Assembly (NCBI RefSeq): GCF_009914755.1
Contig: NC_060941.1
Strand: one strand, 5' to 3'
Source: the human T2T-CHM13v2.0 reference genome, Homo sapiens
Length of the DNA stretch: 64,000 nucleotides
A model generated the notes under the pieces. That model saw only the letters and a program-made list of their open reading frames with translations. It had not been told where the DNA came from and did no database searches. Below, one piece after another: positions 8,752 through 28,429 of this stretch; position 1 is the first letter of the stretch, and each line of letters begins with the position of its first letter. Position numbers and translations under genes: made by a program.

Positions 8752-8757
8752 TTTATT
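8752..8757 (-). terminator. HOXB9: Likely HOXB9 polyadenylation signal (AATAAA)
   Basis: tttatt on plus = AATAAA on minus, ~1.74 kb after the HOXB9 stop, with GU-rich sequence downstream. Confidence 0.6.
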
Positions 8758-10495
8758 TTCTAGAGTGATATATATTTTTTGTTCTTTTTCTTTTTTTCTT
8801 CCAAAACAAACAATTAGAGCTCTAGGCCCCTCGCCCTCCCCACTCCCACCCAGAACCCTCCCATATAATCGACAACTGAAAACAAGCGAGACAATCACCC
8901 CCAAAGAAATCACGAAACACAAGCACAATTTCACGACAGCCACCGACAAAGCAAAAAACTTCTACTGGAATGTCCCCTTGCAGGATCAGGAGAAGCAGGA
9001 GCAAGAGTCTACAAATTGAAGGGGACTGAGAAGTAGGGGAGCAGGGGGAGGAACGGAAGCAGAGAGTAAGCTTCCATCTGATGCTTAGGTGCCATTTTGC
9101 CCCTTTCCTTTGCACGCGGGACTGTTTCCCAGAAGCGCGCGCACGCACCAGCCACGCAGATCTGCATCCAGGCCCATGAAGCAGGAGGCCAAGCCCGGCC
9201 CTGGGGCGGGTCTCCTTTGGCGCTGGGGCTAGAGCCGCCAAGCCCGGGGCTTCTCTGCGTGGGTCGAGAAGCCGACGGGATTCGGAGGAACGCGCAGAGC
9301 GTTGCGCGCTGGGGCCGTTGCTCCTCCCTGTCCCAGACCACTTGTCCCGGAAGGGAGCTTGGGAATCGATTCACAATAAATTCTCATTCGGACTCTCCTG
9401 GCCTGGCTTTCCTGTCTACAGTGGGGTTGACCTAGCGGGGAACGGAAGGTGGAGGGATTTTTCTACAAGGGGCGGCTTGACTTGCGGGTGCAAGGTGGAT
9501 ACGACCGAAGAGAGTTGATTTCAGAGCTAGGGAGGGTGCGGAAGAATGCAGGGCCGGTCGAGAGCAAGAGAAGCTACAGTCTGTCAAGTGGTGCACAGAT
9601 GAACAGGAGGACAACATTGTCAAGGCTCTACGACCCACAGTTTGACCTTCTTTTGTTGGAAGGAGAGGGAAACATCATGCGGAATTAAACATTTCCTGCA
9701 ACAAAATGTATATGTTGGTGGGAGGTGGGGAGTAGCTCCACCTAAGATACCTTCATAAAACCACGTGCTGCCTTTTCTTGTACTTTCTAGCCCACCGGCT
9801 TGGGGGCTAGGTTTGCTCCATCTTCCCCATGGCCCTTGGCCTGAGAATAGTTGGCAACTCCATGGGAATGGTATGGCAATGCTGCAGCCTTTGGGCTGCA
9901 ACTCCTCACTCAGGAGTCTGCCTCTAGACATCTCCCTGGTGGGTATTTGCATTAGGGGTAGAACCCGGGCTTGCCTGACAGTCTGAGGGCTGTTTTGCCA
10001 AATTTGGTGTGCGATGGTCTGCAACTGGAGTGTCACCTCACTTGACTGAATGGTGGTTGTGAGCTCACCCCATTACTGTGTGTGGATGTCTGCTGAGCTG
10101 TGTAGAGTTGGAGTGTCCCTGGGTGACTTTTGGGTGGGTGTAGAGAAGAAACAGGCAAGCTGGAAGTGAGGGGCTAGGACTTCCCAGAAAAATTACAGGG
10201 CATACTAGGAGCTTGACTGGGGTCTCTCTTTCCTTGTGGCCCATCACATTCTTAGGAACCAACTATTTCTATCTTCTAAATCAACAAAACTTTCTCCTGA
10301 CACCTAGAGAGAAGAGAGAGACAGGTAAGGGCAAAGGAAAGGAGGGAGGTTCTAGGTGCAGATAAAGGACTTGGAAGAGAGACTCCCTTCCCCATTCACT
10401 TGAATACATCCCAGACAGCACTGGCTTTGCAGTCGTCACATAACTAAGAGTGAGATGGGGAAGAGCTAGGGAGGACTGGGGGTAATCTTTAATCT

Positions 10496-10731
10496 TTACT
10501 CTTTGCCCTGCTCCTTATTCATTTTCTTCATTTTCATCCGCCGGTTCTGAAACCAGATTTTGACTTGTCTCTCACTCAGATTGAGGAGTCTGGCCACTTC
10601 GTGCCTACGGTCCCTGGTGAGGTACATATTGAACAGAAACTCCTTCTCTAGCTCCAGCGTCTGGTATTTGGTGTAGGGACAGCGCTTTTTCCGGGAAGAG
10701 CGAGCGTGCAGCCAGTTGGCGGAGGGGTTGG
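10496..10731 (-). CDS. HOXB9: Homeobox protein Hox-B9, coding exon 2 (homeodomain)
   Basis: Acceptor CTCTTTCAG|CC. Encodes [81 protein letters not shown] at 10498-10496. Confidence 0.99.
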
Positions 10732-12399
10732 CTGAAAGAGAAGCAGCGATAGAATCAAAGAAAGGAAGGGGGTGAAGGGCCCCAGATCAAGAGGGCACTC
10801 CCTTGGTCTCCACTCCCCATCTTGCACTGGAGAAGAGGCCACCTGGGTCTTCAAGCTCCCAGGAAGGGTGTCACAGATGGGCCAGCCATTGCTATAGACA
10901 CCTCCAGGTGAGAGGCTGTGTGGAAAGGATGGAGCCAAACGTGGGCCCAGGCTTCCTCAGCACTTCCAAAGCTCTGCCTACATCAAGTTCCCTCTCAATT
11001 TTTCTCTACTTGGGTCCAAACTGCTTAGGACTCAGGTCAGAGTTCAGCATGGTTGAAGTCCCACCAGCAGCACTCCCAGGCTGACTAGGGGTGGGTGGCT
11101 GACCTGAAGGGTCCTGGCTCTAGGAGGTGAGAGGAGGAGTTGGGTGGGGAAGTGAGATGTCTGTTCAGTCACTGCATTTGGGGTGTCACTTCACCCCAAG
11201 AGACCTCTCAGCCCTTCAGTCCAGTCCCAATATCCCCTGCCTTGATCACAAACAAGCTTGTGTCTCTAGACCACATGGCAGCAGGCATGTGTGTCTGCGT
11301 AGAAATCTCCCCCCCTGCCACCACCACACACCACGAATATGGGTCTGCACTTAGAGCCACAAACAGCCAGCACACTCCAATTCACACGCAATGCAATTGC
11401 AACCATTTATCAACTCCAGCTTATGGACAGGGGAGCACTGGGGGCTCACAGATAACTTATGGTTGCAATAGTCTCTCTCCTTTTCAGCTCCTGCTCAGCT
11501 CACAGTTTGGTTAACGCAAGTGCAGGGAAATTAGGGAATAAAATTGCTCCAGTCCCAAGGTGGGGAGCCAGGGGTGATGTGGAGGTAAAAGGAAGCCCTT
11601 CACAGCACACCTAGCCTTAATTGATCCTATGTGGGGGCTGGAGGGGAGAAGAGGGTAACCGAGTGGAAGAGAGGAAACAAAAATATATACAGGCTTCTCT
11701 TCTTACCTTCTCTCCCCCTACTCTGGAACTCAAAAAAGTTGCCAAATAAAGCTAAGCCAATTAAAAATAACAGCCACCAGCTACTAGCTTCCTTCTCCCC
11801 AAGTGAAAAACACTGGATTTTTTTATATAAAAAATTTGGTTCATCCTACACTAAGTACCGTGTCTTACCAATTTGCAGCGCTATTTCCTTAATGTGATTG
11901 CCTGGGATGGGACCCGCAGCCGCATTAAATATGAAAGAGGGAAAAAACTGTTAATAATTGATCCTAGCCAAATGGCTGCCTTGCCATAATGGGCTTTTCA
12001 GGCAGAATTTGGGGGTTTAGGGTGGGGGATCTGTTTGGGAGTGTGCGGGGAGGGTTGGGGAAGAATGTGTTCCCTAAATGCCAGCTCTTAGGATTCCACC
12101 TGGCAGGTTGGAGGTGACAGGACCCTGCAAGGAATGGGGCTGCTCTTTACTCTCCAGCAGGCAAGGATGCTCTAAAGGGCCCTGGGGACACTCCGTCAAT
12201 GGGAAATCTAGCAGGGCAAGGAGAGACTAAAACATCCCTACTTCCCAAAAAGAGTAAGAAACGAGGACCTGATCCACCAGCCTGCGAGTCATTGTTTGAG
12301 GCTGAGTTCCCTCACCGATGAGCCCTTCTCAACCTTAAAAATAAATAATAGGAGAACCCTCTCTTCTCATCTAGTAGCACCTCCTGAAAATCAGCCAGA

Positions 12400-14420
12400 C
12401 TTGGCGTTCTGGCCGGGGTGCTTTTGAGGAGTGGGAGGTGACGGGAAACTACCCACAAAGGGTAAAGTTCTCCGCCTCTCTGCAACTCTCTCTTCCCCCC
12501 ACCCCTCCTCTCCCCGGGGTCCCTTCGAGATGCCCCGATATTCGGAAGCGATTCCCCGACTCCCCAAGAGGCGGACAGCCCGGGCTGGGGCTCGGGAGCC
12601 CCGCAGAGAGCAGCGGGGGACCGCAGAAAAGGAAGCGGTAGCCCCTGCGAGGACGCCGAGGAGGAGAGGGGCCACCGGAGGGAAGGCTCCCGGGGAGGGG
12701 CCGGCGCATCCGGGGAGGGGGCTCAGTCACCGCGTCCTGGGCTTCCCCCGCCCCTCCTGTCGCCGGTTGCGGACTCTGCGCGGCTACAGCGCGAGATCTG
12801 CTAGGAACAATCCTCCGCCAAGCTGTTGCATCGCAAATAAAATCCTAATGAGCTCCCTCCCCCTTCCCCTTGGCCGACTTTTACGGTCTGCGCGTGGCGC
12901 GGGGAGCTCTGCCAGCCGCACGGCCCCGGGCAGCCCAGTGCGCTCCGGCCCTTGCCCTCGCCGGCTCTCGGCCTCGCTGGCCGCTGGCCCCGGCCCCCGC
13001 CAGCTCCTCTCCCGGCCGTCGCCGGTCTCTGGCCGGGCTTTCAGCTGGGGCCTCCGGGAGAGAGGGGGAAAGAGGGCCGAGAGAGCTGCAAGTCGATCCC
13101 CGAGCCCCTGTTCCCCGCAGGACTTGGAGAAGTGGGGGCAGCGCTCCTCTGGCGGCCTCAGTCTCCCCTTCTAGAGCACGCAGCTTTCCCCTTCCCTCCG
13201 TCTTTCCTTCCTCTCCCCTCCTCCTCCCGGCCCGCTCTCCGGCCACCGCCGCAGTTTCCCTTCACATTGTCCGCAGTTTATTGCCTTTCCCCTCCCCGCC
13301 CCCCTCCTGGCCTTCGGCCTGGGTATTTCCTCACTTTTTATAACTTACTTTGATCCGGCCTCTCTTTGTCCTCGCTTCCTTCGCAAATTTTATTGTCCCC
13401 GTAGCCGGGTCTTTGATTAGACAGCACGGCCTCCCTGCCCGCCGAAGTTTCCAAACTGTACTCGGGCGTGCCCTGTTTGAGCAGCTCCCCAGGCGCGCCC
13501 AGCAGCGGCTCCGCCTTCACCGCCGCCTGGCCCTGCCCCGGGGCCGCTTCGCCGCGCGGCGCCGGCTCCAGCCAGGTGCGGAGGTACCTGCTCTCGGCCG
13601 GCGGGACGCCCTGGGGCTGGATGTAAGGGTGGTAGACGGACGGCAGGCTCCCGGACGCGTGCGGGCTCAGCGGCGCCCAGGAGGCGCCGAACACCGGCGC
13701 TTTGGGCTGGAAGCTGCACGAGGGGAACTCCAGGTGCTCCGCGTGGCCCGGCTGCCGCGAGCTCGCGTACTGGCCAGAAGGAAACTTGGCTGGAGGCGCG
13801 TCCTCACTCTCGTGACTTATGATCGAGTCGACATAATAGCTGCTAAGCGTCCCAGAAATGGACATTCTCAGACATTATCCGGGCGCTTGCAGGGGGAAGG
13901 GAAGCGCTCGCGCGGCGGCGCCCAAGCAGGGAGAGGTGGCACCCGGACCGGTGTGAGGGCTTTCGGACGCGACCCCCCCAGCCCCCCACCCTCCCACCCC
14001 CACCCCCTGCTCAACTTCTCAGCCAACAAAGTACAGTGGAGCAGCCCGTCTCAGCTCTCCTTGCAAAATGATTGGTCAAAGTTTTTCCGACTGCCTGATA
14101 AAGCGTCAGCTCCGACATAAATCAATCGGGCGAGGGGGCTGCGCTCTCGCTGTCATCCGTCCGCACCGCACTCCATATCGAGGATGGATTGTTTTATGCT
14201 GATGCAATGTGCTATCACGTCAGGGCTCCGGCGGCCACGTAACCTCAGCCCCAGCTACCGGCCGCCCGGTCCCCCCCTCCCGCTGCAGGAAGGGGGGCAG
14301 TTCTCAACATGGGGCGGCGGGGGCGGAGGAGAGGCGGAGGGAAGCGGCGGGCTGCCTTGGGAGGGACGCAGGCTGTAGAGCCCTCTCCCCAGGCGGGTCG
14401 GGGAGGGAGGGAGAGCAAGG
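12400..14420. promoter_or_regulatory. HOXB9 CpG island and promoter
   Basis: High CpG density. CCAAT box (attgg 14071-14075) and PBX-HOX site TGATTTATG (minus, 14116-14124). Confidence 0.8.
13349..13865 (-). CDS. HOXB9: Homeobox protein Hox-B9, coding exon 1
   Basis: MSISGTLSSYYVDSIISHESEDAPPAKFPSGQY...EDKERPDQ. Donor CAAA|GTAAG. 517+236=753 nt = 250 aa + stop. Confidence 0.99.
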
Positions 14421-19400: not shown

Positions 19401-20085
19401 ACCTATGTGTACCCCCAGCCCAGCCCAAGGCCAGTGGGAAGCCTTTGGCCACTGGGGTGGGTGGGGAGGAAAAAGTCAACTGAGGGATTAGGAAAGGAAG
19501 GACTTTTCGGACCTACTTCTGTAGGTCTGGTCCCATAGGGGGCCTTCGACAGGACCCTGAGGGCTTTAGGCTGAGATTGCAAGAGCTCTCAGTGTTTGCC
19601 TTTCAGAATGAGACCTACTGAGCCCTCTTCAAGGACCTGAAGCTTCCTGCTGAGGTGGAGCACCAGCCCGCAAAGAGTTACAAAAACCTCAAGAACCCCC
19701 TGCATTTCTTTTGAAATCAAATATTTGTGAAGTTGGGGAGAGTTTCTCTGGAAAGTTCTGGATGTAGTTGAGAGCTCAGAGACCCTAAGGCTGGAAGTTG
19801 GAGCTCTGACTGCCATCTTTGGGTTGGGCTGAACAGCCCAACAGGGCCAGGGAGGTGCCTCGGGAGAGTTGACTGCTCCTCATCCCCCTTCCCCTCCTAA
19901 CACACACACAAAAAAACATTCAGAAGTGGGAAGACACTTCCCAGATCTCTTCTCTGGGGGAACATCCTTGTTGCTCCTGGATGAAGGACCTCAAACCTCT
20001 TCCCCATTTTGCAAGGTTGATCTTCCAGTCCTGATTCTGCTCCCCTCCCCCAACTCCTCCAGCTAAGCGAGGAGCAGTAACTGCC

Positions 20086-20155
20086 GTGAATCGGGTGGTT
20101 TAATGTTGTTGTGTTCAGAAACCCAGGCCCAACAACATGAAACTACCTAATTCAC
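20086..20155 (-). ncRNA. MIR196A1: microRNA precursor mir-196a-1 (mature 5p at 20128-20149)
   Basis: Minus strand GUGAAUUAGGUAGUUUCAUGUUGUUGGGCCUGGGUUUCUGAACACAACAACAUUAAACCACCCGAUUCAC forms a 70-nt hairpin, located upstream of Hox9 as expected. Confidence 0.98.
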
Positions 20156-20979
20156 TCAGCAGTTCCAATTCAAGCTCTAGGTCAAGAGCTCACTGGGGGC
20201 AAACCCTGTGGCCATTTTTTTGTGGGCCAAAAAGCGGCTTAACTTCATTTTGCTCCACCTCTTCCCCAACAGAAGAACCCAGTTGCTACTAAACAACACA
20301 TCGGAAGAACTGAACCCAGGACTCTAGGTAAAACCATTTTGGAGCCGGTCCTGATAGCTCAGATTCCAGAGACATTTGCTGCCTTCCAGGAGCCCTGGCC
20401 AGAGAAGAAGACCCTAGACACAGGCACAAGCCTGGGCAGGGCCTCTTTGATATACCTGCTCAGTCTCTGCCTCTCAGCCCAGCTGGAGGTCTCCACAGAT
20501 AAAAAGAATTCTCAACTTCAAACAGATACGAAGGTGCATCTATACTCAGCACCCTGCTAGCCCCTGTATTCCAGGTCACCCAGCCTCCCAGTGTAGCTCT
20601 GAGAGGCCAGATCTTCAAGTCCTACACACCCCCCAGCTTTGAGATTGGGGCTCAGACAGGAGAGTGAGACAAAAGAGTGCTGAGAAAGAAAGTGACAGAG
20701 AGAAAGGTGGAAAAGCAGAGTGTCAGAAAGTTTCGGGAATTCTAGGGAACAAACAGAGGAAGAATGGGATTTGGAGGGGAAAGCCGGTTGATCTGAACAG
20801 TTGCTGTGAAGGCACCCTGCCCAAAATGTCCCAGGGCCCTGGCTCTGCAGAGGCCGAGCTGCCCCAGGTAAGACAATTCATTCCGAATCTTCGCAGAATA
20901 AGGACTGAGAGGCTAAGGACTGGGATTGGGACACAGAGAACAAATTTGCTTCCTCCTTCCTGACCTTCGGTCTGGGTCC

Positions 20980-22083: not shown

Positions 22084-24083
22084 CAAGGGTTTTTTGTTTT
22101 TGTTTTTTGTTTAACTTTACTTTTCTCTTTCCTTTTCCGTTTCTAGCGGCCAGACCTTTGCCCAGCCCTGCCCGTTTATTGCCGGGTACTTGCTGGAAGG
22201 GGACAGAAGATAAGACTCGGGGTGACTCCCAAGGCCTGAAGGGGGCTGATTGGGCCGGGGGCTCCCAGAGGATAAACCTAGGGGCCGGTCGGTCTTCCTC
22301 GGCGTGGAAGTGAGAGCCACGCGGCGTGGCGGAGCTCCACCACCGTCTCCTTATCTCTTTAAAGCCTCAAAATCAAACAAAACCACTACTACCCAGGCCT
22401 CAAGTTTCCACAGTTTTTGTCTGCTCTGGACCGTTTACTTTTTTTGAAAAAAGAGAACTTGGTGGAATCCAAATTCTCTACTAGGCCTCCGAACCAAAAC
22501 GAAGGAAAATCCGTTTTCTTCTTGGGCTTCAGAGAACTGGGATCGAAGTGATTGACTTCCTGCTCCTTTTGTCTGCTCCAGGGGCCTGGTTAGGTGCCCT
22601 TCTGGATGGGAGAGCAAAAGGTTCTCCATCCTGCCTCACAGTTATTCACCTCCAAAACAGTTTTGAGACACAATGGATGGCTAAGATTAGCTCAGGCTCA
22701 GGCAGAGTGTTCAGGTACAGGAGTGAGGTCCAGCTGCAGGCCCAAGAGGGGGTTTAGTGCACTGAAGGCACCCACCTTCCCATAGATACACACATAGATA
22801 ACCCCACTCCCCAACCCCAAGAAAAGGCACCAAAGTGCTGCTGGATATTTTAAAAATCTGATTAAAAAATAAACGGGCAGGGAAAATACTAGGCAGTATA
22901 GGTTTTGAATTTTCTGAAGGGTTAACTCTGCTGCAGGCAGTCCCACTCGGCCCCAGCTCTCCAGAGGTGGGTGGTGGTCTGGGGGCAGTGCCCTCTGGCC
23001 CCTTCCTAGCACCAAAAGGGAGGAATTGGGGAGCTCTTTAACAGCTGGAGGGCAGGAAGTATCTTATTTCTGGCCAACATTCATATTCCAGTATTTGCAT
23101 GGGGAGGCCCCTCCAGCCTCCCTCATTTGCTCTTTATCATGTTATATTTTCATTCAAAATACTGAGATGGCAGCTACTGGCTGTCACTTCTTCTATTAGG
23201 ATTTCCCTCTGGGAGGACGGCAGGACTGAGGGGCCAGCAGTTTCCAGACCATTCAAGAGTGTTATTACCCATCCCCTACCGGGCACCTGGTGGGGGCCGG
23301 TGTGCTGGCTCCCAGCCTACTGCTGGCCTGGGTCTCTGTGGCTCCCTGGCTGAGAAAAGGAGATGGAAACCTTTTATAGTCTTAGACTCTTTGGAAAAAC
23401 TGAAGAGGCCATAGCCTTAGGATGATGCACCTGCACACCCATATGTTTTGCATACATTTCCAGGGGCTTTGTGGCTTCCCCCTACCCCCATCCCAAGAAC
23501 CCAGGCCATGGATTCCAATTAAAAAAACAAAATTATCTGTATGGTGCCAAAGGACACCCCAAAGCCATTCCCATAGATACCAGCTGTGTCTTTCCGAGGG
23601 CTCCCCAAAGGATAAGTCAACTTTCAGAGGCTCAGCACAGACACCCATGGCCGGGGTGCTGGTGCCGCTCATACACTAACTAGCTGAGATGATGGTCACT
23701 CCGTGAGTAAAGGCCAGTTAGGCAACATTTCTTTTCACCCCCAAACGTTTTCCAAACACTTTTCCAAAAGCATGTTGACCTCCAAATTATTCAGAAAATT
23801 GATGGCCATGCTGGAGGGTTTAGAGGTAACTTCTCCCCACTCCCTTTCTTCCTTGAAGATAAAGCAGAGTTCTAGCGTAACTGGAGGGGGGCTAGACAAT
23901 TTGGTTGGTGAGAGGAGGCAGTGTAGACACAGACGCAGAACACAAGTTCCTTAAAGAAACAAAAATTGAGACCCTTTTCCATTTTGTGAGAGTCACAAGA
24001 ATAAATATTTCTGGGACTTCCTGGCCTGTCTCCCTTCACAGGGTTCATTACAGGCGGGGAGGGAGGAGACAGTCTCGGAGAAT

Positions 24084-24120
24084 TCAGAGGTGCCAGAAGC
24101 CGAGTTCCTAGACCCCAGCT

Positions 24121-24151
<31 letters not shown>

Positions 24152-24371
24152 CCAATTTCTGGCGGCGGGCGGCTGGGGAAGCAGCTCTGTGGTCTCCCGG
24201 CGGGTGAGGCCGAGACAGAGACCAACCTCTAGGCGGCGCCCTGGCGTTGAGTCCGCGCTGAACAAGATTCTCTCGCAGCTCTGCGTCCCGCGCCGGGTGA
24301 AGGGGCCTGTTCCTGCAGGCGCTCGGGGCTCGGCCTGGAGCTGGCGGCCGGCACGTCGCCTTTGGCGCCCT
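24084..24371 (-). pseudogene. Putative HOXB10 unitary pseudogene, exon 2 (decayed homeobox)
   Basis: Acceptor TTTAAC...TTTCTCTTGGTTGGCAG|AG. Reads (E)GAKGDVPAAS/LQAE..GPFTRRGT..LFSADSTPGRRLEVGLCLGLTRRE/SCFPSR..A28 tract..V*ELGFWHL*. Colinear with the in-window HOXB8/HOXB9 homeodomains and with the group-10 RRLE signature. Confidence 0.8.
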
Positions 24372-24465
24372 CTGCCAACCAAGAGAAACACGGTTAAATG
24401 AGTGCGCTGGGACAGAAATCCACAGCTAATCAAGGCCCCATCCGCTCCCACCCCCTGGCCCTTAC

Positions 24466-25090
24466 CTCCTAACTCCATCTCCGACGCTAGGGAGCCTTCC
24501 ACAGCCCGAATCTCCTTTGATGTCCCCAGCAGCCGGCTAGAGGGCAGCGCCAGCATCTTTAAACCCCTCCCCCAGCTTGCAAAAGAAGACACTGAGGTCC
24601 GAAGGAATTAAGTGATTAGCCCAAGATCGGAGCAGCTATTAAAAGTGGTGAAGCAGGGCTGGAGGAGGAGCCCTCTATTCCAAGTGGAATGTTCTTTACC
24701 CCAAATTACCACGACCATTCACCCCCTCCAAACGTGTCTTTCTTGTAAGCAAAATTCATCTCCAGAAAGGCAGCTTTTTGGTGTTTTCTATGTTGGAAGT
24801 TTGGCGTTTCTTGGGTTTCAAATTTGGGGAGGCCCATAAGAAAACTAGAGGCGGATATAGGGACAGCCAGGACAGGATTCAAAGCCAGGGCAAATCCAGC
24901 CCCCTCTTCCAAGAAATGCCAACTCCTCACTTATGACGTCCCTAGCTGCATGACCCTGGCCAAGTGCCTTAGGCCCCGAGGTGCCCAGATGAAGACCTAC
25001 TGGAAAGGGAAGTTGTGAAGTGTGAATGCTTTGTGAAAGAGACTCAACAACTAAGAGAAGCTGCCAGCAGCAGGACTGCTCCACAGCCCC
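24466..25090 (-). pseudogene. Putative HOXB10 unitary pseudogene, exon 1
   Basis: Frameshifted group-10 motifs in the right order: SSPAAGSF/LVVESL (25080-25037), SCS*G/VISEE (24953-24923), NPVLAVP/YIRL*FSYG (24879-24833), SKEIRAVEGSLASEMELG, then phase-1 donor GAG|GTAAGG at 24465. Confidence 0.7.
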
Positions 25091-25997
25091 CAAACGAGGG
25101 GGGTTAGGGCCAGTCAGGCCACTCTCCTTCTTGGCCCAAATAGGGCCTCTTTGTTAAATTCTTGTGGAGCAAGGAAAGAGAGGTCTTGTTCTGGAATGAG
25201 CCCCTCAGAAACGTCCAGGGCCTAGGAAGAGCAGGATAGGAGAAACCAGGGTCCCTCTTCCCCTTCCCCTGTGGCAGAGATGCCATTTTATACTGCAGAG
25301 CCCTCTGAGAGACATTTCTGCAAAGTTATTCCTAAAACAGAGGAGCCAGAGAATCACCTGCGGAGGAGGAAGGCAACAAGAGGAGGGACGGGCTGCTGGG
25401 ACCAGGCAGCAAAGGACAGGCACCTACTATGGGGCAGACTATGATGGGGCGCCTGCTGGGGTCTACAGTCCCACAAGAGGTGCATTTCCCAGCCGGGCAG
25501 GAGCTCTTGAGGATGCCTAATTACCCAGCGCACATCTGGAGCAGCTGCACCCTCGGACACATTATTTCGCTCCAACCCCTATTTTCATTCTGGAGGCTGA
25601 GTCATAAAAGACTGTAGAGGCAGAATAAAGTCGGGTCTGTATGTGTCAGCATTCCTGTGTGTGAGTGTGTGTGTGAATATGTGCACGTCTGGGGTGACGT
25701 CTGTGCATCTCACTGTGATTGCCCAACGGATTCGCTAAAGTTAGGGAAAAAAATGGAGCAACATCAGGCGAATTCAACTGCGAACATACTGTCAGCCTCA
25801 TTATCTGCCCATTTCAAGGGAAAGCATTTGGGTCTTGGAATTAGCCAGTTAATTGCCTCACTTCTTTGTTCACTTTAGGGCAGGAGGAATTATCTGCATC
25901 CTTTTAAAGCATCTATATTTCAAAACTTTAAGATCTCCGCATTCTCAATTTTCTTTATTTCTATCTTTATAACACTTGAGCACTCAGATCTGCCTGT

Positions 25998-26215: not shown

Positions 26216-26789
26216 TAAGGAGGAGGACGAAGAGAAAAGAGGAGGGGGAAAGTGGTATGGGGGGTGGGGGTGAGTGGCAAGGAGGAAACCTGCTTTGTTC
26301 ACAGAGAGCCAGCCTAGGACGGAGGGTGTGTGTCTCAGCTGTATATGTATAATGTATTCTTTTGACTTAGAGCAATGTCTATAAAAGTGAGGCCCCTTGG
26401 ACCCCTTGGCCTGTAACTACCTCTTCAATAAGGTACAGAGAATTGGGGCAATTATCTGGCTCATTTCAGGTTCAAACTCCCTTTAGCCTGTAGTATCTGG
26501 ATCTCATAGGGGAAAGGTCTGAGAAGTGGTGGCTTGTATTCCTTTGGCTTTTCAAGGAGTTATTTCCCTTTGCTGTGGTGAGCACGGTCCTGCCTTAGAA
26601 AATGGGTAGACAAGAAATAGGGGGCCAGGAAGCTGGAATTAAACAAAACATCTAAGAAACGCTTGACAAAAATCAGGTCTTACCTACTTCCTGGGCAGCC
26701 AGGAGGAGGCCTTGAAGTTCTCCATACACTCGCCCCAGAGGACCACCACCCCACTAACAGAAGTCACAGCCTTTTGTCTGCTGGGGACT

Positions 26790-26860
26790 TTCATTCCACA
26801 TTCAGCAATCATTTCCTGAGCGCCTACTATGTGCCCAGCACTGGGCTGAGCTCTGGGGCT
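26790..26860 (-). mobile_element. L2 3'-end fragment
   Basis: cattcagcaatcatttcctgagcgcctactatgtgcccagcactgggctgagctctgggg. Confidence 0.65.
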
Positions 26861-28429
26861 TCAGCAGGGCTGCACCCCACCGGTTGGCAGTGCCGATGTG
26901 GCAGCCAGCAAGAGGTCTTGGCTCCTAGAAACAAGTCCAGGACACAAGAAGGAAGACAAGCCTGCTGGGCAAGAACTTCTGGCCAATAGCAGCACTGCCT
27001 TTTCAGGGCCAAGTCCTAGTGCAGGGGCGGAGCCAGAAGGTCGGGAGCACCCCCTTCTAATTGTCTATCAGAAAAAGGCCAACTCCATGGTGCAGATGGC
27101 CCAGTGCAGGGAGGGGTGGGGCAGGCAAAGAGATGGCTAGAGGCTCCTGACCCTCAGTTGGAAGTTTCTGAGAACACCAATTAGCTTTCTTTAATTAGTA
27201 AAGTAGGGAGCAAATGAGCATATATTTCTTCTGCTCTGATTAAAAGCATTTAGGTCAGGTTTTCACAGCCAAGATTATCCAGTTTAAGCTGTCCCAAGAA
27301 GAGAATTGTTTATTTTTTTCTTTGTATTTTCAGGCAGGGGTCTGAATACTATTAGCCAACCATTGGCTTCTTGTCACAGCCTCGAACTGCTGGGCAGGTG
27401 GGTGGTGGTTGTGCAGCACAGAGAGGGGCAACTAGAAATGAGTTGGAGTCTTTCCTGTGCCAAGTCACATTTGTTTGAAATGTATAGACAATTGAGGAGC
27501 AGCCAGGAGGGCTTGGGTTTGGAGTGTAAGTATGTATGGAGGGGGAGGGTACAATTAGCCAGATAATTTCCAGTTCTCCTAATTTGTCTTAACATAGTCC
27601 TTGAAAAAGGAAGTTTCTTTTTACTTCCCAGACCCCAAAGAAGCCTGATTTTTCTCCTGGGAGATCTAGCTTGGTCAATTCACACATGTGGGGAGATGGC
27701 CAGGAAACTTAATAGGCCGGGAAAGAAGAGCTAAGTCCTTCTTTACACTCTGTGTCTAAACAGGCCACAACACAAGAGGCTGGGCGTAATTAGGAGGTCC
27801 CCCAGGATAGTCAGGGGTCACATGCTGTTTATCTCTTACAAACAAGATTACTAAAATATTAGGGAGCAAATCCTTCCCCTTTAAGTTCAGCATTTGGTAT
27901 TCCCCAGCCTCTAACCTTGGCTAAATCAGCCCCAAGTAGAGCTGGGTCCCTGAGGAAATGGAATAAGTGAGTCAATAAGGGACACAAAGGAACATTCTAT
28001 TGCCCAGTCCCCATTTGCTTGACTTATAGGCAGCTTTAGTTAGGAGGCTGTTTCCAGATAGTCTTCCCTTCCAGGAGTTCTGGTATGGTTTTTAGTCCCT
28101 GGGAAGCTGCTTAAGCCTGATTTCCTTCCATTGCTGGTCCAACTGCTGGCCAGTCTAAGATCAGCTTTCCCCAGCAAAGCTCTTCCCACGTTCTCAGGCT
28201 CCCAGCTGCTGGGAAGGAAAGACTGACTCCCACTGGGAGCCCAGACCCTACAGGTAATGGTGGGGAGAGGACACTGCCACCGGAGTGTTTTTACAGGTGA
28301 AGGCTGGCCTGGCAAAATGGAGATGTCAGCCAAGAGAAAGGGTGAAGACCTACGTAAACTGACTATATTTGGCCTCGGCATTTCCCAGACACCAGCTCCT
28401 TTGATCTATCCAAATTGTAGTTGTTAACT

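What the first reader, a model, noticed from the sequence alone, without database searches (positions are those of the whole stretch)
24084..25090. Fossil HOXB10: a decayed two-exon paralog-group-10 Hox gene upstream of MIR196A1
Established: mammalian HOXB lacks groups 10-12, HoxB10 survives in some fishes (e.g. zebrafish hoxb10a, coelacanth), and miR-196 lies between Hox9 and Hox10. Seen: at that position and on the Hox strand, group-10 motifs occur in the correct order. (1) AGC AGT CCT GCT GCT GGC AGC TTC [TC] TTA GTT GTT GAG TCT CTT = SSPAAGSF/LVVESL, vs HOXD10 SSPAANTFLVDSL and HOXA10 SPAANSFLVDSL. (2) SCS*G/VISEE vs SCSFAQNIKEE and SCSYPPSVKEE. (3) CP/NPVLAVP/YIRL*FSYG vs [20 protein letters not shown]. 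(4) SKEIRAVEGSLASEMELG-E| vs HOXC10 KERAKAADSSPDTSDNEAK-E|. (5) Exon 2 EGAKGDVPAAS/LQAE vs EEIKSDTPTSNWLTAK. (6) A homeobox remnant. (7) V*EL vs IREL, followed by a TGA. Total coding length is roughly 300 codons. Inference: a unitary pseudogene. I do not know of a HOXB10P in standard human homeobox catalogues, but cannot check. Paralog sequences are recalled from memory.
Basis: partly seen in the sequence, partly recalled or inferred. Interest (0 to 1): 0.95.

Follow-up and report, generated by a model that had tools for sequence, protein, structure and literature searches.

The report
Decayed HOXB10 homeobox exon inside LINC03057

Summary
Partly supported. The quoted motifs are in the sequence. 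They split into two classes.

Exon 2 (homeobox) is supported. I laid a Hox10 exon-2 profile from that acceptor with Hox10 geometry. Colinear blocks then fall within -4 to +5 nt of the expected diagonal, from 24366 to 24122. Among 507,736 anchor positions, only the ten true Hox homeoboxes scored higher. No dinucleotide shuffle out of 20,000 reached the observed score. A reversed profile and nine other annotated acceptors scored at background. The distance from acceptor to homeodomain is 67 nt, against 68 in HOXC10 and HOXD10 and 65 in HOXA10. It is 53 in HOXB9 and 26 in HOXB8.

The caveats are real. I designed this test after seeing a tblastn hit. Standard tools are weak: tblastn E 0.14, HMMER E 2.6, Pfam nothing. 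No HoxB10 protein and no other vertebrate genome could be compared.

Exon 1 (motifs 1-4, the 94-nt intron) is at chance level.

The best reading is a HOXB10 exon-2 relic reused as a lncRNA exon. Confidence is about 0.7.

The parts
24371..24395 (-). Splice acceptor and pyrimidine tract. Position 24371 is the first base of the last exon of LINC03057 and the proposed first base of HOXB10 exon 2 (phase-1 split codon G|AG, as in HOXC10 and HOXD10).
   Evidence: RefSeq exon 22400-24371 is shared by all 3 LINC03057 isoforms. The anchored score plateau covers 24369-24372.
24340..24366 (-). Relic of the N-terminal arm of exon 2 (HOXD10 residues 251-259). It lies on the expected diagonal (shift 0).
   Evidence: Block score 7.9 bits.
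24269..24304 (-). Homeodomain positions 7-18 (PFTRR... against PYTKH...), shift -1 nt.
   Evidence: tblastn HSP. Block score 10.2 bits. HMMER alignment.
24197..24265 (-). Homeodomain positions 21-43 (LF...RRLEV...LT.R against LF...RRLEI...LTDR), shift -4 nt.
   Evidence: Block score 18.3 bits. tblastn. HMMER.
24168..24196 (-). The place where homeodomain positions 44-51 (the WFQN recognition helix) should lie. It is not recognisable.
   Evidence: No block was placed here by the traceback.
24153..24167 (-). Homeodomain positions 52-56 (RRQKL against RRMKL), shift +1 nt.
   Evidence: Block score 11.0 bits.
24124..24151 (-). A run of 28 A. It reads as a lysine run where the K-rich end of the homeodomain and the start of the tail would be. 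It is low-complexity and contributes 9.2 bits.
   Evidence: Sequence. Block 24148-24122. The result holds without this part of the profile.
24229..24231 (-). TAG stop in the frame set by the acceptor (phase 1), 46 codons into the exon. This is one of the disablements.
   Evidence: Translation.
22400..24371 (-). Terminal exon of LINC03057. The relic occupies about the first 250-290 nt. The rest stands where a Hox10 3' UTR would be.
   Evidence: RefSeq annotation. Human Hox10 second exons are 1.0-1.6 kb.
24466..25090 (-). It is not distinguishable from chance and lies inside the LINC03057 intron.
20083..20158 (-). MIR196A1 hairpin, the positional landmark. It lies 3.9 kb downstream of the relic's tail.
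   Evidence: Rfam RF00256, 76.6 bits. The paralogous spacings HOXA10 stop to MIR196B and HOXC10 stop to MIR196A2 are both 2.3 kb.

Best explanation
Window 24371 to about 24122 (minus strand) is the decayed second exon of HOXB10: N-terminal arm, homeobox and the start of the tail. HOXB10 is the paralog-group-10 gene that lungfish and coelacanth keep and tetrapods lack.

Shown here:
- It lies on the Hox strand between MIR196A1 and HOXB13.
- It starts at a splice acceptor that is still in use.
- Homeodomain-like blocks follow in the right order, at the Hox10-specific distance from that acceptor.
- It cannot encode a homeodomain. The blocks sit in different frames (shifts 0, -1, -4, +1, +5 nt). 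The acceptor's frame hits a TAG after 46 codons. The WFQN recognition helix is gone. A 28-nt A run has replaced the K-rich end.

Inferred:
- After coding function was lost, the acceptor and the exon body were kept as the terminal exon of the Hox-strand lncRNA LINC03057. This is probably the human counterpart of mouse Gm53, judged by position only.
- Whatever the locus does today is done as RNA or as DNA, not as protein.
- Exon 1 has either decayed beyond detection or been deleted.
For: 1. Anchored test at 24371. The score was T=46.1 (P=4) and 32.6 (P=6). No other anchor among about 125,900 in the window reached it, on either strand, with the true homeoboxes excluded. In 507,736 anchors with 196 kb of extra human DNA, only the 10 true Hox homeoboxes scored higher. 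0 of 20,000 dinucleotide shuffles reached it.

2. Robustness. It is top in 7 of 8 truncated-profile settings. With plain BLOSUM62 and single human HOXD10, HOXC10 or HOXA10 sequences it is top in 5 of 6 settings, for example 46.5 against a null maximum of 40.5.

3. Controls. The reversed profile gives 16.0 against a null mean of 15.7. Nine other annotated acceptors in the window fall at 1-97% of the null. The true HOXB9 and HOXB8 homeobox exons anchored at their own acceptors also score at null, so the test is specific to Hox10 geometry.

4. Geometry. The distance from the acceptor to the codon of homeodomain position 7 is 67 nt. It is 68 in HOXC10 and HOXD10, 65 in HOXA10, 53 in HOXB9 and 26 in HOXB8 (and the annotation).

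5. Residues. Identity is 19 of 42 aligned positions to each Hox10, against 14-16 for group 11 and 10-12 for groups 12 and 13.

6. Independent standard tool. In hmmsearch --max, the stop-free piece after the acceptor is the 4th best of 6,789 non-genuine pieces.

7. Position. The spacing to miR-196 resembles that in HOXA and HOXC. The DNA is unique and not a repeat.

8. Literature (passages seen). hoxb10 is present in lungfish and coelacanth and lost in tetrapods (PMC7875771; PMC3038165).
Against: - I designed the anchored test after I had seen the tblastn HSP and its distance from the acceptor. It is not fully pre-registered.
- The null maxima are close to the observed values: 45.8 against 46.1, and 31.4 against 32.6.
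- With a band of +-3 nt, 76 of 125,901 anchors reach the observed value.
- One truncated setting gives 11 of 125,245. HOXA10 with P=4 gives 5 of 125,089.
- A Gumbel fit to the shuffles gives only 1.2e-3 (P=4) and 7e-5 (P=6).
- Without the anchor the similarity is not significant. tblastn gives E 0.14-0.36 in 64 kb. HMMER gives 6.8 bits, E 2.6. Pfam reports 0 families at E<=10. The Atlas gives no usable hit.
- Homeodomain residues do not separate group 10 from groups 9 and 8 (19, 18-19 and 19 of 42; HOXC9, covered at 35 positions only, 15 of 35).
- The most conserved homeodomain motif (WFQN) is absent, and part of the score comes from a poly-A run.
- No exon 1 can be shown.
- No HoxB10 protein was retrieved, and no other vertebrate genome could be read.
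- The decay simulation fits K of about 0.4-0.6 substitutions per site. At K=0.8 only 0.4-2.4% of simulated relics score this high. A strictly neutral relic as old as the fish-tetrapod transition would therefore be unusually well kept.
Confidence: 0.72

Rival explanations
1. Chance resemblance. A GC-rich, arginine-rich open frame that happens to follow a lncRNA acceptor imitates parts of a homeodomain.
For: Unanchored statistics are weak: tblastn E 0.14-0.36, HMMER E 2.6, Pfam nothing. Null maxima come within 0.3-1.2 bits of the observed score. The segment is a local GC peak of 0.65. The test design was post hoc. WFQN is missing.
Against: 0 of 20,000 composition-matched shuffles reach the score. 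It is the best non-genuine anchor of 507,736, and it falls on the single annotated minus-strand acceptor of the interval. The reversed profile scores at the null mean. Five blocks are colinear over 250 nt at the Hox10 offset.
Confidence: 0.17
2. A real Hox homeobox relic of another gene: HOXB11 or HOXB12, or an old tandem copy of HOXB9.
For: The homeodomain blocks are as close to HOXA9 (19/42), HOXB8 (19/42) and HOXB9 (18/42) as to the Hox10 genes. HOXB also lacks groups 11 and 12.
Against: The acceptor-to-homeodomain distance is 67 nt, against 65-68 in group 10, 53 in HOXB9 and 26 in HOXB8. Groups 11-13 match clearly worse, at 10-16 of 42. It is the first Hox-strand unit 5' of MIR196A1, where Hox10 sits in HOXA and HOXC.
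Confidence: 0.06
3. A processed (retrocopied) pseudogene of HOXA10, HOXC10 or HOXD10 inserted here. The A run would be its tail.
For: There is a 28-nt A run inside the region.
Against: The similarity starts exactly at an intron-exon boundary, and no exon-1 sequence abuts it. The A run lies inside the homeodomain register, not after a 3' UTR. There is no DNA-level similarity to any paralog.
Confidence: 0.02
4. A still-translated small protein. LINC03057 isoform NR_189643 has a 167-aa ATG ORF that runs across the junction in the homeodomain-like frame.
For: The ORF was found. Its frame is open from 24370 to 23996.
Against: The sister isoform, whose donor lies 4 nt away, lacks the ORF. The ORF contains the poly-A run. 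No protein in the public sets matches it. There is no Pfam or Atlas hit. RefSeq calls the gene non-coding.
Confidence: 0.03

Closest known systems
Second exons of human HOXA10, HOXC10 and HOXD10
   Same: All have a phase-1 intron, with 65-68 nt from the acceptor to homeodomain position 7. The order is arm, then homeodomain, then tail. They lie on the Hox strand with a miR-196 gene 2.3 kb downstream in HOXA and HOXC. Identity is 19 of 42 aligned homeodomain positions.
   Different: The relic has frame shifts, a stop codon, no WFQN helix and a poly-A run. It shows no DNA-level similarity and no demonstrable exon 1. It fails Pfam.
hoxb10 of lungfish, coelacanth and ray-finned fishes
   Same: It has the same expected position in the HoxB cluster, and hoxb10 is the gene that tetrapods lack (PMC7875771 and PMC3038165, passages seen).
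   Different: I could not compare sequences. No HoxB10 protein was returned by the two paralog searches, and no vertebrate genome other than the human one is reachable here.
lncRNAs that are fossils of lost protein-coding genes (Hezroni et al. 2017, PMC5577775; PMC10195156)
   Same: A lncRNA exon on the same strand and in the same syntenic slot as a gene lost in mammals, retaining traces of its coding sequence and a splice site.
   Different: Neither main text mentions any Hox gene (find for Hox and homeobox: 0 occurrences).
Mouse lncRNA Gm53
   Same: It is a lncRNA next to Mir196a-1, 5' of Hoxb9, described as being of unknown function (10.1101/2024.07.20.604409, passages). Its knock-down changed Hoxb9 and Hoxb13 levels (PMC8920890, passages).
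   Different: Orthology with LINC03057 is inferred from position only. No mouse sequence was examined.

Membership tests
Hox paralog group 10 gene (as a relic) | Position on the Hox strand between the Hox9/miR-196 unit and the more posterior Hox genes | tested here: met
   The relic is at 24122-24371 (-). MIR196A1 is at 20086-20155 (-), HOXB9 at 8752-13954 (-), and HOXB13 lies further 5' (annotation).
Hox paralog group 10 gene (as a relic) | A homeobox in exon 2 | tested here: inconclusive
   When anchored at the acceptor it is significant: 0 of 507,736 non-genuine anchors and 0 of 20,000 shuffles reach the score. By standard criteria it is not: Pfam PF00046 is not reported at E<=10 and HMMER gives E 2.6. 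WFQN is absent.
Hox paralog group 10 gene (as a relic) | Group-10 exon geometry: a phase-1 intron 65-68 nt before homeodomain position 7 | tested here: met
   The relic shows 67 nt. HOXB9 shows 53 and HOXB8 26, and those two true exons score at null under Hox10 geometry.
Hox paralog group 10 gene (as a relic) | Group-10 diagnostic homeodomain residues | tested here: inconclusive
   19/42 to HOXA10, HOXC10 and HOXD10, but also 19/42 to HOXA9 and HOXB8 and 18/42 to HOXB9. Groups 11-13 give 10-16/42.
Hox paralog group 10 gene (as a relic) | Exon 1 with the N-terminal Hox10 motif and the internal conserved motifs | tested here: not met
   The exon-1 HMM gives no signal. Motifs 1-4 are at background. 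Chain scores are at 12.6-33% of real tiles.
Hox paralog group 10 gene (as a relic) | Orthology to fish, lungfish or coelacanth hoxb10 shown by sequence and synteny | not testable with these tools
   No HoxB10 protein was retrieved. No non-human vertebrate genome is available.
Unitary pseudogene | Disabling changes, and no intact copy at the locus | tested here: met
   The blocks sit in different frames (shifts 0, -1, -4, +1, +5). There is a TAG at 24231-24229 in the acceptor frame. No second copy exists in the genome.
Unitary pseudogene | A functional ortholog in other species | not tested
   From the literature only: hoxb10 in lungfish and coelacanth.
lncRNA derived from a lost protein-coding gene | An annotated lncRNA exon overlapping the relic on the same strand and reusing its splice site | tested here: met
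   LINC03057 exon 22400-24371 (-). Its acceptor is the start of the relic.

The most novel reading that the evidence does not exclude
The relic is too well kept for a neutral remnant lost at the fish-tetrapod transition. Its score fits about 0.4-0.6 substitutions per site. There are two ways to explain this. HOXB10 may have stayed under coding constraint well into the amniote or synapsid lineage and been lost independently in several tetrapod branches. Alternatively, its homeobox exon may have been under selection ever since as the acceptor-proximal part of a conserved Hox-strand lncRNA (LINC03057/Gm53) that regulates HOXB9, HOXB13 or pri-miR-196a-1. In the second case a Hox gene would have become a regulatory RNA in place.
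Probability: 0.25. Interest if true: 0.75.

Novelty: new member of a known kind. Interest (0 to 1): 0.6.

Why it matters
Textbooks and recent Hox papers treat HOXB10 as simply absent from amniotes. The 2024 preprint read here calls it 'elusive' and describes the neighbouring lncRNA Gm53 as being of unknown function.

A recognisable homeobox exon at the start of the LINC03057 terminal exon would have three consequences:
- It would give the first physical trace of the lost gene in the human genome.
- It would explain where this lncRNA and its splice site came from.
- It would make the timing of the loss testable, through disablements shared among mammals, sauropsids and amphibians.

It adds a Hox example to the known class of lncRNAs that are fossils of protein-coding genes. 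It does not change how Hox clusters are thought to work.

Tried and rejected
- **Whole-protein chain alignment.** A frameshift-tolerant, unanchored chain alignment over 23951-25250 was only modestly above shuffles: 30, 9, 10, 1 and 3 of 300 shuffles reached it at P=3, 4, 5, 6 and 8. I rejected it as a test because short colinear matches are too easy to find.
- **Retrieving HoxB10 proteins.** A HOXD10 exon-1 query returned 287 hits. The 120 listed were named Hox-D10 or were unnamed. A shorter query, meant to shut out full-length D10 by length, gave 43 proteins, named Hox-D10, Hox-A10, one Hox-A11a, or unnamed. No HoxB10 came back, so no B10-specific comparison was made.
- **The relic's own open frame as query.** It gave no protein, no Pfam family and no Atlas hit.
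- **DNA-level paralogy.** Against parts of HOXA, HOXC and HOXD, the only clear match was the miR-196 hairpin (E 6e-06). Five other matches of 18-26 nt had E 0.04-0.49.
- **Other relics (HOXB11, HOXB12).** The next-best Hox-strand anchors and pieces (48666, 53743) are lysine- and A-rich low complexity. Only 30 of the remaining 48 kb of the interval were held.
- **Alternative exon 1 upstream of the LINC03057 donor.** The stretch 26684-27368 is at background. The stretch 27369-28053 is marginal: 3-5 of 200 shuffles and 3.3-3.6% of 1,410 real tiles reach it. I did not follow it up.
- **Literature.** I searched 'hoxb10'+'pseudogene' (6 papers), 'hoxb10' alone (38 papers, listing seen), 'hoxb10/tetrapods/remnant', 'LINC03057' (2 papers, listing only), 'Gm53'+'Hoxb9', and one on Hox exon remnants. 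None showed a described mammalian HOXB10 relic. The coelacanth Hox-cluster paper is not held. Supplements are closed.
- **Technical failures.** timed out. Searches were hmmsearch option errors. One search crashed part-way, and I repeated it.
Full report
**What is there.**
The region is not repeat-derived: no masked repeat of 100 nt or more lies between 22140 and 34616. The 330 nt around the putative exon 2 match only themselves in the whole genome.

**First look with standard tools.**
I ran tblastn with the three human Hox10 proteins against the 64-kb window. Apart from HOXB8, HOXB9 and low-complexity HOXA10 hits, it found a single-frame match of the homeodomain to 24304-24194, extending to 24071 for HOXC10. 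Identity was 14 of 38, bit scores 24-25, and E 0.14-0.36. On its own that is not significant. Pfam hmmscan of the 100-residue open frame reported no family at E<=10. I then ran hmmsearch --max with a Hox10 exon-2 HMM against 6,800 stop-free pieces from 254 kb. The piece following the acceptor scored 6.8 bits, E 2.6. It was the fourth best of the 6,789 pieces that are not true homeoboxes. The Atlas search gave no usable hit.

**The anchored test.**
In HOXC10 and HOXD10 the intron is phase 1 (G|AG), and the codon for homeodomain position 7 starts 68 nt into exon 2. In HOXA10 it starts at 65 nt. In the window the corresponding codon (24304) starts 67 nt after the annotated acceptor. I therefore scored a Hox10 exon-2 profile laid out from a candidate exon start with that geometry. 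The profile came from hmmbuild on 141 Hox10 proteins. I allowed a band of +-6 nt and a fixed penalty P for each change of diagonal.

- At 24371 the score is 46.1 (P=4) or 32.6 (P=6).
- No other anchor among about 125,900 in the window reaches it, on either strand, with the true HOXB8 and HOXB9 homeoboxes set aside.
- With 196 kb of further human DNA there are 507,736 anchors in all. The extra DNA comprised the posterior HOXA, HOXC and HOXD clusters, more of the HOXB9-HOXB13 interval, and eight CpG-rich developmental loci. Only the ten true Hox homeoboxes score higher, and the relic comes next. The best null values are 45.8 and 31.4.
- 0 of 20,000 dinucleotide shuffles of the 293-nt segment reach the observed value.

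**The aligned blocks.**
The traceback places five blocks in order, at shifts 0, -1, -4, +1 and +5 nt from the expected diagonal:

1. the arm (24366-24340);
2. homeodomain positions 7-18 (24304-24269);
3. homeodomain positions 21-43 (24265-24197);
4. homeodomain positions 52-56 (24167-24153);
5. a lysine run encoded by a 28-nt A run.

**Controls and results that are less favourable.**
- Truncating the profile leaves the anchor top in 7 of 8 settings. The truncations were: without the K-rich end, homeodomain only, and positions 7-43 only. In the eighth setting, 11 of 125,245 anchors reach it.
- Plain BLOSUM62 with single human sequences gives the same picture. HOXD10 scores 46.5 against a null maximum of 40.5, and 38.5 against 30.0. 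HOXC10 is also top. For HOXA10 at P=4, 5 of 125,089 anchors reach it.
- A reversed profile scores 16.0 against a null mean of 15.7.
- Nine other annotated acceptors in the window lie between 1% and 97% of the null. The true HOXB9 and HOXB8 homeobox exons, anchored at their own acceptors, also score at null, because their homeodomains start 53 and 26 nt into the exon. The test is therefore specific to Hox10 geometry.
- Against the finding: with a +-3 nt band, 76 of 125,901 anchors reach the observed value.
- A Gumbel fit to the shuffles gives only 1.2e-3 and 7e-5.
- The null maxima are close to the observed scores.
- I built the test after seeing the tblastn hit.
It was made without the annotation, and 24371 is the only annotated minus-strand acceptor between HOXB9 and the end of the window.

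**Which Hox gene.**
Over 42 aligned homeodomain positions, the relic shares:

| Gene(s) | Identities |
|---|---|
| HOXA10, HOXC10, HOXD10 | 19 of 42 each |
| HOXA9, HOXB8 | 19 of 42 each |
| HOXB9 | 18 of 42 |
| HOXC9 (only 35 positions covered) | 15 of 35 |
| Group 11 | 14-16 of 42 |
| Groups 12 and 13 | 10-12 of 42 |

Residues therefore exclude groups 11-13 but not groups 8 and 9. The assignment to group 10 rests on two things. One is the exon geometry (67 nt against 65-68). The other is position: this is the first Hox-strand unit 5' of MIR196A1 (Rfam). In HOXA and HOXC the Hox10 stop codon lies 2.3 kb from miR-196. Here the tail lies 3.9 kb away.

**Exon 1.**

- In 33,000 overlapping tiles of 254 kb on both strands, motif 1 is matched or beaten by 9-10 tiles. 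These include six other sites in this very window, one of which is the real N-terminus of HOXB9.
- Motif 2 is matched by 15-20% of tiles, motif 3 by 3.9% and motif 4 by 37-59%.
- The exon-1 HMM finds nothing between 22 and 36 kb.
- The exon-1 chain score of 24466-25150 is reached by 33% and 12.6% of 1,410 real tiles.
- The proposed intron would be 94 nt, whereas the human Hox10 introns are 1.1-3.0 kb.
- The 685 nt immediately upstream of the LINC03057 donor at 26684 is at background too; the next 685 nt (27369-28053) is marginal.
- Exon 1 of Hox10 carries little information per residue, so its absence does not argue against the exon-2 relic. It cannot be claimed either.

**State of the relic.**
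The frame set by the acceptor runs into a TAG at 24231-24229 after 46 codons. The homeodomain-like blocks sit in other frames. Nothing resembling the WFQN helix is left at 24196-24168. The end of the homeodomain is an A run. It cannot encode a DNA-binding homeodomain.

**Age.**
I simulated decay starting from HOXC10 exon 2, with Jukes-Cantor substitutions plus indels and 1,000 replicates per setting. The simulation reproduces the observed score at about 0.4-0.6 substitutions per site. At 0.8 only 0.4-2.4% of relics score as high, and at 1.0 none to 0.2% do. My recollection, from no call, is that the neutral distance from the tetrapod ancestor to human is nearer 0.8-1. The relic therefore looks better preserved than a purely neutral remnant of a loss at the fish-tetrapod transition. 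That is the timing given in PMC7875771 and PMC3038165 (passages seen). This is either a warning sign or a hint of later loss or of selection on the lncRNA exon. The segment is also a local GC peak: 0.65 against 0.47-0.52 in the flanks.

**What it is and how it works.**
The best reading is that the acceptor and the first 250 nt or so of the LINC03057 terminal exon are what is left of HOXB10 exon 2. The transcription unit survived as a Hox-strand lncRNA. That the exon is transcribed and spliced is RefSeq's statement. That it descends from HOXB10 is inference from the statistics above. Any present function is inferred only from papers on the presumed mouse counterpart Gm53. One calls it a lncRNA of unknown function beside Mir196a-1 (10.1101/2024.07.20.604409, passages). 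Another reports that its knock-down altered Hoxb9 and Hoxb13 (PMC8920890, passages). Orthology of LINC03057 and Gm53 was not tested.

**Novelty.**
lncRNAs that are fossils of lost coding genes are a known kind (PMC5577775, PMC10195156). My searches found no description of a mammalian HOXB10 relic. The 2024 preprint still calls Hoxb10 'elusive'. Subscription literature, including the coelacanth Hox paper (not held), was not searched. I rate the finding a new member of a known kind, of moderate to good interest. My confidence that the exon-2 relic is real is about 0.7. I see no support for the exon-1 part.

Noticed in passing
window 26812-23993 (-), spliced as NR_189643 (exons 26928-26688 and 24371-22400): This isoform carries a 167-aa ATG-initiated ORF. 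It crosses the splice junction into the homeodomain-like frame and includes the lysine run. The isoform that uses the donor 4 nt away (26684) lacks it.
   Followed up: partly
window 24124-24151: A run of 28 A on the Hox strand sits exactly where the K-rich end of the homeodomain would be. It may be a microsatellite grown from A-rich lysine codons.
   Followed up: no
window 24200-24499: A local GC peak of 0.65 against 0.47-0.52 on both sides. It coincides with the relic and the acceptor.
   Followed up: no
window 27369-28053 (-): The Hox10 exon-1 profile chain score is marginally high here. 3-5 of 200 shuffles and 3.3-3.6% of 1,410 real tiles reach it. The stretch lies just upstream of the LINC03057 first exon and could be looked at as an alternative exon-1 remnant.
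   Followed up: no
window 48666 (-) and 53743 (-): These are the next-best Hox-strand matches to the Hox10 exon-2 profile in the HOXB9-HOXB13 interval. Both are lysine- and A-rich low complexity and do not look like HOXB11 or HOXB12 relics.
   Followed up: partly
window 13865-13900 (-): The Hox10 N-terminal motif profile picks up the true N-terminus of HOXB9 (score 20.4). This is a positive control, and it shows that the motif is shared among posterior Hox proteins.
   Followed up: no
window 20128-20165 vs L007 7537-7574: Between this region and the HOXA9-HOXA10 interval, the only clear DNA-level paralogy is the miR-196 hairpin (38 nt, 87% identity, E 6e-06). Five other 18-26 nt matches to Hox loci had E 0.04-0.49.
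   Followed up: no
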